A DNA stretch of 35,245 nucleotides from Minisyncoccota bacterium (GTDB lineage: Bacteria > Patescibacteriota > Minisyncoccia > Moranbacterales > GCA-2747515), in the NCBI GenBank assembly GCA_938044295.1, contig CALIRC010000120.1, forward strand, positions 1-35,245, given 5' to 3'. The notes beneath the pieces were generated by a model. That model saw nothing but the letters and a program-made list of their open reading frames with translations, had not been told where the DNA came from and made no database searches. Position numbers and translations under genes: made by a program. How positions within the stretch are numbered: position 1 is the first letter of the stretch; each line of letters begins with the position of its first letter. Below, piece by piece: positions 20,338-20,562 of the stretch.

Positions 20338-20562
20338 ACAGGCAAAGAAGAGGTAATCCCCTCAGAGCTGCAGGAAGAAAGTGTTTAGCAAGAGACAAAA
20401 AACATAAGTAGAACCTGCCGGGTATGCCCGTCACAGCTGACTAAAGGGTATCAGTCACATGAGTAGCTGAATACTAAAGTACGGTGGTACCACGGTTTCT
20501 GAATCTTTCAAGGAAGTCGTCCGTAAGTGTATAGTGTAATACATTTATGGACGATTTTTTTT
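20338..20562 (+). promoter_or_regulatory. T-box riboswitch leader (tRNA-sensing transcription attenuator), probably Ile-specific
   Basis: T-box sequence AAAGUACGGUGGUACCACGG at 20476-20495. Antiterminator: helix A1 UACGG (20480-84) with CCGUA (20521-25); 7-nt bulge UGGUACC (20485-91); helix A2 ACG (20492-94) with CGU (20518-20). A competing 16-bp terminator at 20517-20554 plus U8 shares the CGUCCGUA strand. Upstream hairpins follow the canonical order. Stem II (20370-20418) has an AGUA/GAA S-turn loop. A CGGG-UAUG-CCCG hairpin lies at 20419-20430. Stem III spans 20434-20469. The 5' boundary is uncertain. Confidence 0.8.
20517..20562 (+). terminator. T-box expression-platform terminator
   Basis: TCGTCCGTAAGTGTAT (20517-20532) pairs with ATACATTTATGGACGA (20539-20554): 14 Watson-Crick pairs plus 2 G-U. 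The loop is AGTGTA. Eight T residues (20555-20562) abut the ATG at 20563. Confidence 0.85.

What the first reader, a model, noticed from the sequence alone, without database searches (positions are those of the whole stretch)
20338..20562. Complete T-box antiterminator/terminator switch in a CPR-like genome
**T-box box and bulge.** The sequence contains the conserved T-box box, AAAGUACGGUGGUACCACGG. It folds exactly as the canonical antiterminator:
- 5-bp helix A1: UACGG with CCGUA.
- 7-nt bulge: UGGUACC.
- 3-bp helix A2: ACG with CGU.

**Competing terminator.** The 3' strand of this structure (CGUCCGUA) is also the 5' strand of a 16-bp terminator hairpin followed by U8. The two folds are therefore mutually exclusive, which is the defining T-box logic.

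**tRNA match.** The bulge UGGU would pair with an ACCA 3' end. That requires discriminator A, as in tRNA-Ile.

**Why it matters.** T-boxes are classically described in Firmicutes, Actinobacteria, Chloroflexi, Deinococcus-Thermus and a few others. I am not aware of a characterised example in Patescibacteria-type genomes. The other two aaRS genes in this window (argS, glyQS) lack any T-box.
Basis: partly seen in the sequence, partly recalled or inferred. Interest (0 to 1): 0.72.

Follow-up and report, generated by a model that had tools for sequence, protein, structure and literature searches.

The report
Isoleucine T-box riboswitch, stripped-down form
The spacer holds a genuine tRNA-sensing T-box switch that should turn on the isoleucyl-tRNA synthetase operon when tRNA-Ile is uncharged, in an ultrasmall (CPR/Patescibacteria) bacterium, and it pairs a very short tRNA-reading arm with a transcription terminator, a combination a recent review describes as unusual.

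Summary
Window 20336-20562 (+) carries the exact T-box string (20476-20495), helix A1, the 7-nt bulge UGGUACC and helix A2. It also carries a competing 16-bp terminator followed by U8. Rfam's T-box model matches end to end (45.8 bits, E 4e-7 for the whole window). That score is below Rfam's gathering score of 93, so standard annotation misses it.

It is a K-turn plus a 4-bp hairpin whose apical loop carries the Ile codon AUC. The tRNA-elbow platform is absent. Stem II (S-turn), Stem IIA/F-box and Stem III are present. Downstream lie a NUDIX gene and then a type-2 IleRS gene.

Five related loci in the same IleRS clade keep the same design with compensatory changes. A model of the decoding domain hits once upstream of ileS in 149 of 161 Saccharibacteria-like sources (the window plus 160 fetched loci) and nowhere else. 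Stem I, Stem II and Stem IIA are 96.5% paired across 120 distinct leaders.

Most likely function: tRNA-Ile-dependent transcription antitermination. It is a new variant of a known kind, combining an Actinobacteria-like decoding module with a Firmicute-like terminator, in a phylum where I found no published T-box.

In passing: most Saccharibacteria leaders use a different switch, in which the terminator encloses A1/bulge/A2 and competes with Stem III.

The parts
20303..20331 (+). Promoter-like site: TTTACA, 17 nt spacer, TACCAT, with TG before the -10. It would place the transcript start near 20338.
   Evidence: Weak evidence: 3 such sites were found in the region against 3.3 expected by chance. 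Its position just before the leader is what makes it plausible.
20341..20369 (+). Ultrashort Stem I. K-turn: C-stem G20342-C20343 with G20367-C20368; bulge AAA 20344-20346; tandem G.A/A.G at 20347-20348 with 20365-20366. Then a 4-bp helix, 20350-20353 with 20360-20363. The apical loop is UAAUCC, 20354-20359.
   Evidence: Sequence and fold. Rfam alignment aligns the base of Stem I (GC, GA motif and the short helix) to the model and replaces 74 positions of distal Stem I with 4 nt. The equivalent helix is 97.5% paired, with changes on both sides at all 4 pairs, in 120 distinct related leaders.
20356..20358 (+). Specifier codon AUC (Ile), expected to pair with anticodon GAU of tRNA-Ile. It is followed by C20359; relatives have A at that position.
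   Evidence: A17, T18 and C19 are at least 90% conserved in alignment A2. Loop sequences are tabulated.
20370..20418 (+). Stem II. Lower helix GCAGG 20370-20374 with CCUGC 20414-20418. S-turn strands AAGAAAG 20375-20381 and UAAGUAGAA 20405-20413. Upper helix 20382-20386 with 20400-20404.
   Evidence: AAGAA and AGUAGA are nearly invariant. The lower helix is 96% paired, with changes on both sides at all 5 pairs.
20419..20438 (+). Stem IIA: CGG 20419-20421 with CCG 20428-20430. F-box-like CCGUCA at 20428-20433. Candidate Stem IIB partner AGCU at 20435-20438.
   Evidence: Stem IIA is 96% paired and aligns to the Rfam model. The pseudoknot pairing was only inspected by eye in A2. In the window it is at most 2 bp plus a U.U mismatch.
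20447..20475 (+). Stem III hairpin.
   Evidence: Folds (-7.7 kcal/mol). A hairpin of variable length occupies the same place in all five relatives.
20476..20525 (+). T-box sequence and antiterminator. A1: 20480-20484 with 20521-20525. Bulge UGGUACC: 20485-20491. A2: 20492-20494 with 20518-20520. A2 loop: about 20497-20515.
20517..20562 (+). Intrinsic terminator: 16-bp stem (20517-20532 with 20539-20554), loop 20533-20538, U8 at 20555-20562. Its 5' strand overlaps the 3' strands of A2 and A1.
20563..21021 (+). First regulated gene: NUDIX hydrolase, 152 aa. Its ATG directly abuts the U8, and there is no Shine-Dalgarno sequence.
   Evidence: Pfam PF00293, E 4.6e-19. Sequence.
21063..24014 (+). 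ileS: isoleucyl-tRNA synthetase of the type-2 (eukaryote-like) kind. This is the gene whose amino acid matches the specifier.
   Evidence: Pfam tRNA-synt_1, Anticodon_1 and DUF5915. The best solved relatives are 8c8v/8c8u and 1ile, far above 1ffy. No terminator lies between the NUDIX gene and ileS.

Best explanation
This is a functional, isoleucine-specific T-box riboswitch that controls a NUDIX-ileS operon by transcription attenuation.

**Proposed mechanism.**
1. Transcription starts near 20338.
2. The first ~100 nt (20341-20440) fold into a compact decoding module. It consists of a K-turn Stem I whose apical loop presents AUC, Stem II with an S-turn, and Stem IIA/B.
3. This module binds the GAU anticodon of tRNA-Ile without any contact to the tRNA elbow, as in the actinobacterial ileS T-boxes.
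4. If the bound tRNA is uncharged, its ACCA 3' end pairs with UGGU of the bulge (20485-20488). That stabilises A1/A2 stacked on Stem III, ties up 20518-20525, and lets RNA polymerase read through into the NUDIX gene and ileS.
5. If the tRNA is charged or absent, the much more stable 16-bp hairpin plus U8 forms and transcription stops at about 20562.

**What is shown and what is inferred.**
- Shown: the sequence elements, their mutual exclusivity, their conservation and covariation, and their linkage to ileS.
- Inferred: tRNA binding, the charge sensing and the read-through itself.
For: **Model match.** Full-length match to RF00230, E 3.9e-7 in the whole window, and the only hit there.

**T-box core and terminator.** Exact T-box core plus a competing terminator, z = -8.9. 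The terminator conformation is about 18 kcal/mol more stable than the antiterminator conformation, so the default state is OFF.

**Specifier.** AUC in the Stem I apical loop matches the downstream IleRS gene.

**Relatives with the same design.** Five loci of the same IleRS clade (L001, L051, L079, L141, L154) have the same design with compensatory changes:
- A1 is UACGG/CCGUA, UGCGG/CCGUA, UAAGG/CCUUA, AAGG/CCUU, or UUAAGG/CCUUAA.
- The bulge is invariant.
- The terminator always begins inside the A2/A1 3' strands.
- Rfam scores them 41-45 bits.

**Decoding domain across the lineage.**
- Across 120 distinct leaders, Stem I, the Stem II lower helix and Stem IIA are 96.5% paired against 77.5% in shuffles (0 of 500 shuffles reach it) and 35-51% when partners are slid.
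- 10 of the 12 pairs show changes on both sides.
- Model R1 hits exactly once in each of 149 of the 161 sources searched (the window plus 160 loci). Every hit is on the + strand, the strand of ileS, and there is no other hit in 1.43 Mb. Most of these leaders were in the model's own seed alignment; at least 15 hits are in loci outside it.

**Which gene is the constant partner.** The gene between the T-box and ileS differs from locus to locus (NUDIX, HD_4, TrpR-like, membrane protein, unknowns), while ileS is constant.

**Size match.** The decoding module is the same size as the 99-nt N. farcinica ileS aptamer, which has a K-turn, an apical specifier, an S-turn and a Stem IIA/B pseudoknot (PMC10651847).
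Against: - The score is below Rfam's gathering threshold (45.8 against 93).
- The Stem I distal platform is absent. A recent review describes it as generally required for transcriptional T-boxes (PMC7583486).
- The base 3' of the specifier is C in the window. It is A in at least 90% of relatives and a conserved purine in known T-boxes (PMC7583486).
- The Stem IIB pseudoknot pairing is weak in the window: 2 bp plus U.U, judged by eye.
- Unconstrained MFE folding of the leader does not recover Stem II or Stem IIA.
- The window-type group has only six members, so covariation in A1, A2 and the terminator rests on few events.
- No tRNA-Ile gene was available to check the anticodon and A73.
- There are no expression data.
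- The promoter call is at chance level.
Confidence: 0.85

Rival explanations
1. Dual or mainly translational control. The terminator hairpin, whose 3' strand ends 9 nt before the NUDIX ATG, also blocks ribosome loading on full-length transcripts. In that case the T-box would gate translation of the first gene as well as, or instead of, transcription.
For: ATG 20563-20565 directly abuts the U8 and there is no Shine-Dalgarno sequence. The same arrangement occurs in L001. Ultrashort-Stem-I T-boxes described so far are mostly translational (PMC7583486).
Against: The hairpin plus U8 is a textbook intrinsic terminator. No SD/anti-SD pair exists to sequester. In L051, L079, L141 and L154 the first ORF starts further from the terminator. 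ileS, the conserved target, is 500 nt downstream and can only be reached through transcription.
Confidence: 0.2
2. A decayed or inactive T-box relic. The hairpin then works simply as the constitutive terminator of the upstream glycosyltransferase gene (19156-20325), and ileS is expressed from another promoter.
For: Non-purine C after the specifier, a weak Stem IIB, a sub-threshold Rfam score, and one clade member (L046) with glycosyltransferase directly followed by ileS and no T-box. Promoter-like hexamers lie inside the NUDIX gene.
Against: Every module is intact and in the right order. The T-box core is a perfect match. The same architecture is kept in five diverged relatives (mean column identity 58% among four of them) with compensatory changes. 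The internal promoter-like sites are at chance frequency.
Confidence: 0.06
3. The switch reads a different tRNA through another triplet of the apical loop UAAUCC: AAU (Asn), UCC (Ser) or CCC (Pro).
For: The loop offers several overlapping triplets, and the usual 3' purine is missing in the window.
Against: AUC is the only triplet conserved across the 121 aligned leaders. The constant downstream gene is ileS.
Confidence: 0.03

Closest known systems
Canonical transcriptional (class I) T-box leaders, Rfam RF00230, e.g. Bacillus subtilis tyrS and glyQS
   Same: T-box sequence with the UGGNACC bulge between helices A1 and A2. A terminator whose 5' strand is the 3' strand of the antiterminator, followed by a U-run. 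A K-turn at the base of Stem I. Stem II with an S-turn, Stem IIA with an F-box, and Stem III.
   Different: Distal Stem I is missing. That includes the specifier internal loop, the AG bulge and the distal loop that form the interdigitated T-loop platform for the tRNA elbow. 74 model positions are replaced by 4 nt, and the specifier sits in an apical loop. The score is half the Rfam gathering score.
Actinobacterial ileS T-boxes with short or ultrashort Stem I (M. tuberculosis, M. smegmatis, N. farcinica; Sherwood et al. 2015, as described in PMC7583486 and PMC10651847)
   Same: Ile specificity and an ileS target. A decoding module of about 100 nt made of K-turn Stem I with the specifier in the apical loop, Stem II S-turn, and Stem IIA/B. 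No elbow platform. From my own knowledge, the M. tuberculosis IleRS is also of the eukaryote-like type 2, as is the window's.
   Different: The described actinobacterial examples sequester a Shine-Dalgarno sequence (translational control). The window has an intrinsic terminator with U8 and no SD to sequester. The window has C, not a purine, 3' of the specifier. I could not obtain an actinobacterial leader sequence or read Sherwood 2015, so sequence-level relatedness is untested, and I do not know whether some actinobacterial ultrashort leaders carry terminators.
Saccharibacteria-type ileS leaders found here (e.g. L003 3802-3985, L023 3804-3985)
   Same: The same decoding module, aligned in A2 and hit by model R1 at 34-95 bits. 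The same UGGU start of the bulge, and ileS downstream.
   Different: Their core is GAUGGUACC (or UGGUAAC/UGGUAUC), not GGUGGUACCRCG. Their terminator helix encloses A1/bulge/A2 and competes with Stem III. The window uses the canonical competition.

Membership tests
T-box riboswitch (RF00230) | Conserved T-box sequence forming helix A1, the 7-nt bulge UGGNACC and helix A2 | tested here: met
   Exact string at 20476-20495. Helices.
T-box riboswitch (RF00230) | Mutually exclusive terminator (or sequestrator) that uses the 3' strand of the antiterminator | tested here: met
   16-bp stem 20517-20532 with 20539-20554 plus U8, overlapping 20518-20525. The same holds in 5 relatives.
T-box riboswitch (RF00230) | Specifier codon in Stem I that matches the amino acid of the regulated gene | tested here: met
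   AUC at 20356-20358 with IleRS downstream. AUC is nearly invariant in 121 leaders. It sits in an apical loop rather than an internal loop.
T-box riboswitch (RF00230) | Stem I distal platform (AG bulge plus distal loop, interdigitated T-loops) that stacks on the tRNA elbow | tested here: not met
   The Rfam alignment replaces 74 Stem I positions with 4 nt. Stem I is 29 nt in all.
T-box riboswitch (RF00230) | K-turn (GA motif) at the base of Stem I | tested here: met
   GC / AAA bulge / GA...GA / GC, read from the sequence and aligned to the model's GA motif. It was not tested structurally.
T-box riboswitch (RF00230) | Stem II with S-turn, Stem IIA/B pseudoknot with F-box, and Stem III | tested here: met
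   AAGAA and AGUAGA are nearly invariant. The Stem II lower helix and Stem IIA are 96% paired with covariation. Stem III appears. Stem IIB pairing was only inspected by eye and is weak in the window.
T-box riboswitch (RF00230) | Score at or above the Rfam gathering threshold | tested here: not met
   45.8 bits against 93. The E-value is nonetheless 3.9e-7 for the whole window.
T-box riboswitch (RF00230) | Fourth bulge base complementary to the discriminator base of the cognate tRNA | not testable with these tools
   No tRNA gene in the window. No tRNA-Ile in the 60 related loci scanned, which include all five window-type loci. UGGU predicts A73, which from my own knowledge is the usual base in bacterial tRNA-Ile.
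T-box riboswitch (RF00230) | Uncharged-tRNA-dependent read-through | not testable with these tools
   This needs in vitro transcription or in vivo reporters.
Actinobacterial-type ileS T-box (ultrashort Stem I, TBDB class II) | [quoted passage not shown] | tested here: met
   Description of the class in PMC7583486 and PMC10651847.
Actinobacterial-type ileS T-box (ultrashort Stem I, TBDB class II) | Expression platform that sequesters the Shine-Dalgarno sequence (translational control) | tested here: not met
   Intrinsic terminator plus U8, and no SD or anti-SD in or after the hairpin.
Actinobacterial-type ileS T-box (ultrashort Stem I, TBDB class II) | [quoted passage not shown] | tested here: not met
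   C20359 in the window. The base is A in at least 90% of the related CPR leaders.
Actinobacterial-type ileS T-box (ultrashort Stem I, TBDB class II) | Match to the TBDB class II covariance model | not tested

The most novel reading that the evidence does not exclude
The Saccharibacteria-like CPR lineage regulates ileS almost universally with T-boxes that lack the tRNA-elbow platform yet act on transcription. This contradicts the working rule that co-transcriptional T-boxes need a long Stem I for fast tRNA capture.

The lineage holds two expression-platform designs:
- The canonical design, seen in the window's clade.
- A previously undescribed nested design in most Saccharibacteria. There the tRNA-acceptor-binding element survives inside the terminator hairpin, and the switch is made by Stem III being exchanged for the terminator's lower helix.

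The shared ultrashort Ile decoding module and type-2 IleRS could also link these epibionts evolutionarily to Actinobacteria, which from my own knowledge are their usual hosts.
Probability: 0.45. Interest if true: 0.75.

Novelty: new variant of a known kind. Interest (0 to 1): 0.6.

Why it matters
**For the T-box field.**
- A review argues that the Stem I elbow platform is what lets transcriptional T-boxes capture tRNA before RNA polymerase reaches the terminator, and that short Stem I forms go with slower, reversible translational control (PMC7583486).
- A natural family of platform-less leaders that end in intrinsic terminators gives a direct test of that kinetic argument.
- The family has about 149 members in 161 sources examined (the window plus 160 fetched loci), including the window.

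**For CPR/Patescibacteria biology.**
- Almost nothing is known about gene regulation in this group, and a recent perspective mentions riboswitches only as possible tools (PMC11665869).
- This would be a concrete, conserved, ligand-defined regulatory RNA on an essential gene.
- It could be testable in the few cultivable Saccharibacteria.

**For annotation.** These leaders score 35-46 bits against a gathering score of 93, or are not found at all (two of the six related loci scanned gave no hit at E 0.01). Rfam-based pipelines will not annotate them.

Tried and rejected
**Rfam at the gathering threshold.** No hit. The E-value mode was needed.

**Regex searches for the core.**
- A regex for the canonical core GGNGGNACCNCG found only 3 of 80 related loci. 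That wrongly suggested the T-box is rare.
- Relaxing it to TGGNACC revealed the divergent Saccharibacteria core.
- The covariance model R1 then recovered loci with UGGUAAC or UGGUAUC bulges that the regex had also missed.

**Alignments that failed.**
- MAFFT and RNAalifold on whole leaders or on discriminator regions misaligned Stem I of L051 and the terminators of the window and L001 (A1; A3). I used explicit helix tables instead.
- The Infernal alignment of the six window-type leaders to R1 mis-registers their 6-nt-loop Stem I, so I did not use A4 for counts.
- The first count on A2 used the window's register for Stem I and gave 35% paired. The majority register is shifted by one column and gives 97.5%.

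**Searches that came back empty.**
- The metagenome scan for closer relatives found none above 64% identity.
- The window's IleRS is not on record as an exact sequence.
- No tRNA-Ile gene was found in the window or in the 60 related loci scanned.
- Literature searches found no paper on T-boxes in Patescibacteria, Saccharibacteria, TM7 or CPR.
- The TBDB supplements held as text do not mention these taxa.
- Sherwood et al. 2015 and 2018 are not held.
- No actinobacterial leader sequence could be retrieved.

**Rejected after consideration.**
- The miRNA and lncRNA Rfam hits on the hairpin are chance matches to any long hairpin.
- The GTG ORF start at 20527 lies inside the terminator. ATG 20563 is the likely start.
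Full report
**1.

The string AAAGTACGGTGGTACCACGG occurs once in the window, at 20476-20495 on the + strand. No match with up to three mismatches appeared in 100 shuffles.

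Reading the sequence and a helix search give the antiterminator:
- A1 is UACGG (20480-20484) paired with CCGUA (20521-20525).
- The 7-nt bulge is UGGUACC (20485-20491).
- A2 is ACG (20492-20494) paired with CGU (20518-20520), extendable with G-U pairs.
- The A2 loop is 19 nt.

The terminator follows:
- 20517-20532 pairs with 20539-20554 (16 bp) and is followed by U8 at 20555-20562.
- Its free energy is -27.8 kcal/mol, z = -8.9 against shuffles. The pattern scan also found it.
- It uses the A2 and A1 3' strands, so the two folds exclude each other.
- A hand-built model of the whole leader scores -24.9 kcal/mol in the antiterminator conformation and -43.4 kcal/mol in the terminator conformation. 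The default state is therefore OFF, as in known T-boxes.

Rfam gives no hit at the gathering threshold. In E-value mode the T-box model RF00230 matches 20336-20527 over its whole length at 45.8 bits. The E-value is 4.5e-9 on 401 nt and 3.9e-7 on the whole window, and it is the only hit at E up to 0.1. The gathering score in this release is 93.

**2.

In the Rfam alignment, 74 model positions of Stem I are replaced by 4 nt. Stem I here is only 29 nt (20341-20369). It has:
- a K-turn (GC / AAA bulge / GA...GA / GC);
- a 4-bp helix, GAGG with CCUC;
- an apical loop UAAUCC that contains the Ile codon AUC (20356-20358).

The distal part of Stem I, which in canonical T-boxes stacks on the tRNA elbow, is absent.

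The other modules are all present in the canonical order:
- Stem II, with AAGAAAG and UAAGUAGAA S-turn strands;
- Stem IIA (CGG with CCG) with an F-box-like CCGUCA;
- Stem III.

A promoter-like TTTACA-17-TACCAT with an extended -10 TG ends at 20331. That would place the start just before the leader, but such sites occur at chance frequency in this region.

**3. Context**

- Upstream is a GT4 glycosyltransferase gene that ends at 20325.
- Downstream is a NUDIX hydrolase gene (20563-21021). Its ATG abuts the U8.
- After 41 nt with no terminator comes a 983-aa IleRS gene (21063-24014), followed by recO.
- The IleRS is of the type-2, eukaryote-like kind. Its best solved relatives are 8c8v and 1ile, far above the S. 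aureus type-1 enzyme 1ffy.
- The argS gene and a class II aaRS gene in the window have no T-box.
- All 80 best IleRS relatives among species-representative genomes are Saccharibacteria/Patescibacteria MAGs. The closest is 75% identical, a MAG labelled Paceibacterota.
- The best metagenome relative is 64% identical. The window's exact IleRS sequence is not on record. On these two collections, the window's own lineage is sparsely sampled.

**4. Relatives with the same design**

Five loci (L001, L051, L079, L141, L154) carry the same kind of leader:
- ultrashort Stem I with an apical loop of AUAUCA, UUAUCA, UAAUCA or CUAUCA;
- Stem II, Stem IIA and a Stem III of variable length;
- the core GGUGGUACCRCG;
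- a terminator that begins inside the A2/A1 3' strands, followed by a U-run.

A1 varies with compensation: UACGG/CCGUA, UGCGG/CCGUA, UAAGG/CCUUA, AAGG/CCUU, UUAAGG/CCUUAA. The Stem I helix varies as GAGG/CCUC, GGAG/CUCC, GAUGG/CCAUC, AGAG/CUCU. The bulge is invariant.

Rfam scores three of these loci at 41-45 bits.

In an IleRS neighbour-joining tree these five loci, the window and L046 form one clade, separate from the Saccharibacteria clade. L046 has no T-box; there ileS directly follows the glycosyltransferase gene.

The gene between the T-box and ileS differs from locus to locus, while ileS is constant:
- NUDIX in the window;
- an unknown gene plus an HD_4 gene in L001;
- a 367-aa membrane protein in L051;
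- an unknown 137-aa protein in L079;
- a TrpR-like protein in L141 and L154.

**5. The decoding module is conserved across the wider lineage**

A search for TGGNACC showed that most Saccharibacteria ileS loci have a divergent T-box core (GAUGGUACC) about 70 nt before ileS.

I aligned 121 decoding domains, including the window (A2). AUC, the AAGAA and AGUAGA S-turn strands, and the CG...CG of Stem IIA are invariant or nearly so.

For the Stem I apical helix, the Stem II lower helix and Stem IIA (12 pairs, 120 distinct sequences):
- 96.5% of cells form a standard pair, against 77.5% in shuffles. None of 500 shuffles reached the observed value.
- When partners are slid, 35-51% of cells pair.
- 10 of the 12 pairs show changes on both sides.

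The controls have limits. The shuffle control ignores the relatedness of the sequences. The slide control does not, and it agrees with the shuffle control.

A covariance model built from this alignment (R1) hits exactly once in each of 149 of the 161 sources searched (the window plus 160 loci). Every hit is on the + strand, the strand of ileS, and there is no other hit in 1.43 Mb of both strands. Most of these leaders were in the seed alignment and match by construction. At least 15 hits are in loci that were not in it, including the RefSeq genome of Candidatus Nanogingivalis (L072). In the eight of these I inspected, the bulge reads UGGUAAC or UGGUAUC.

**6. Mechanism**

Steps shown are marked S; steps inferred are marked I.

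1. A ~100-nt module (20341-20440) forms the K-turn Stem I, Stem II S-turn and Stem IIA/B fold. (S: sequence and covariation. I: three-dimensional fold, by analogy with the 99-nt N. farcinica ileS aptamer described in PMC10651847.)
2. It pairs AUC with the GAU anticodon of tRNA-Ile. (I)
3. The free ACCA end of uncharged tRNA pairs with UGGU of the bulge. This stabilises A1/A2 on Stem III. (I, from the known family mechanism in PMC7583486.)
4. That withholds 20518-20525 from the terminator, so RNA polymerase reads through into the NUDIX gene and ileS. (S: mutual exclusivity. I: read-through.)
5. Otherwise the hairpin plus U8 terminates transcription. (S: the structure. I: its activity.)

My confidence in this account is 0.85.

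**7. Points against, and rivals**

Points against:
- The score is below Rfam's threshold.
- The elbow platform is missing. A recent review says transcriptional T-boxes generally require it, because it speeds tRNA capture before RNA polymerase reaches the terminator (PMC7583486).
- The base after the specifier is C in the window. It is A in at least 90% of relatives and a conserved purine in known T-boxes (PMC7583486).
- The Stem IIB pairing is weak.
- Plain MFE folding does not recover Stem II or Stem IIA.
- The tRNA-Ile gene could not be examined.

Rivals:
- An added or alternative translational effect on the NUDIX gene, because the hairpin ends 9 nt before its ATG and there is no SD (confidence 0.2; not exclusive of the main account).
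- An inactive relic acting as the terminator of the upstream gene (0.06).
- A different specifier triplet in the loop (0.03).

**8. Comparison with what is known**

The element works like a class I transcriptional T-box at its 3' end. At its 5' end it looks like the actinobacterial ileS T-boxes with ultrashort Stem I.

It meets the defining T-box features except the Stem I platform and the Rfam threshold. It fails the defining expression-platform feature of the described actinobacterial class, which is SD sequestration.

I found no paper that reports T-boxes in Patescibacteria, Saccharibacteria, TM7 or CPR. The TBDB text and the supplements held do not name these taxa.

I could not read Sherwood et al. 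2015. I therefore cannot exclude that some actinobacterial ultrashort leaders with terminators were already noted. From my own recollection, its abstract says "many", not all, are translational.

On this basis I rate the element a new variant of a known kind, with interest 0.6.

**9. Seen in passing: a different switch in most Saccharibacteria**

In the GAUGGUACC-type leaders, A1 (6 bp, 99% paired) is followed outward by a 2x2 purine internal loop. Beyond that lies a long lower helix whose 3' strand ends at a U-run. The SD and the ileS ATG lie after the U-run.

Evidence for the lower helix:
- In a rigid register it is 81% paired, against 66% in shuffles (maximum 68.5%).
- It has 303 cells with changes on both sides, against a shuffle mean of 104 and a maximum of 162.
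- Its 5' strand is the loop plus the 3' strand of the Stem III hairpin.
- The MFE of the 3' domain uses the long-range helix in 97 of 107 leaders. With the 3' tail masked, a hairpin forms upstream of A1; in the examples printed it is a Stem III hairpin directly before A1.

So the terminator encloses A1/bulge/A2 and competes with Stem III, not with the A1/A2 3' strands. I know of no described T-box with this topology. This part is only partly followed up, and its mechanism is an inference: uncharged tRNA would lock Stem III stacked under A1 and so block strand invasion by the 3' tail.

Noticed in passing
L003 3802-3985, L023 3804-3985, and about 140 other loci among L002-L160: Most Saccharibacteria ileS leaders have a divergent T-box (core GAUGGUACC). 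In these the U-run-terminated hairpin encloses A1/bulge/A2. Its lower helix (8-17 bp) shares its 5' strand with Stem III, so the switch appears to be Stem III against the terminator. The lower helix is 81% paired against 66% in shuffles, and the long-range helix is in the MFE of 97 of 107 leaders.
   Followed up: partly
L014, L022, L033, L068 (UGGA); L062, L075 (UGGC); L072, L123, L090, L096, L064 (UGGUAAC); L074, L021, L137 (UGGUAUC): The bulge varies at its 4th base, which should covary with the tRNA-Ile discriminator base. It also varies at bases 5-6, which are ACC in the Rfam consensus. No tRNA-Ile genes were available to test the covariation.
   Followed up: no
window 20555-20565; L001 2886-2894: The first ORF after the T-box starts with an ATG that directly abuts the terminator U-run, with no Shine-Dalgarno sequence. 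This raises the possibility of U-tract-dependent or hairpin-gated translation initiation.
   Followed up: no
window 20563-21021; L001 3456-4004; L141 2375-2902; L154 1523-2068: The genes co-transcribed between the T-box and ileS differ by locus: a NUDIX hydrolase, an HD_4 (RelA/SpoT-type HD) protein, and TrpR-like proteins. A nucleotide or alarmone hydrolase under control of an uncharged-tRNA sensor is suggestive, but I did not test it.
   Followed up: no
L048 3777-3893, L051 2536-2600, L141 1948-2010, L154 1176-1240, L002, L018, L091: Some leaders carry an extra hairpin between the specifier hairpin and the 3' strand of the K-turn C-stem. That makes Stem I a three-way junction (insertions in alignment A2).
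   Followed up: no
L046 3700-4010: One member of the window's IleRS clade has no T-box and no intervening gene. There ileS follows a glycosyltransferase gene similar to window 19156-20325.
   Followed up: partly
window 20373-20381 and 20504-20512: The A2 loop (UCUUUCAAGG) is complementary to the Stem II S-turn strand (GGAAGAAAG). Unconstrained MFE folding pairs them. This is probably coincidental, but it could act as a folding trap.
   Followed up: no
window 14072-15817, 16015-19059, 24814-26664, 31993-33714: Several large ORFs have no Pfam match or only repeat or DUF domains (DUF4215, DUF11, DUF5648). These include a 1014-aa ORF with no Pfam match. They are probably surface proteins.
   Followed up: no
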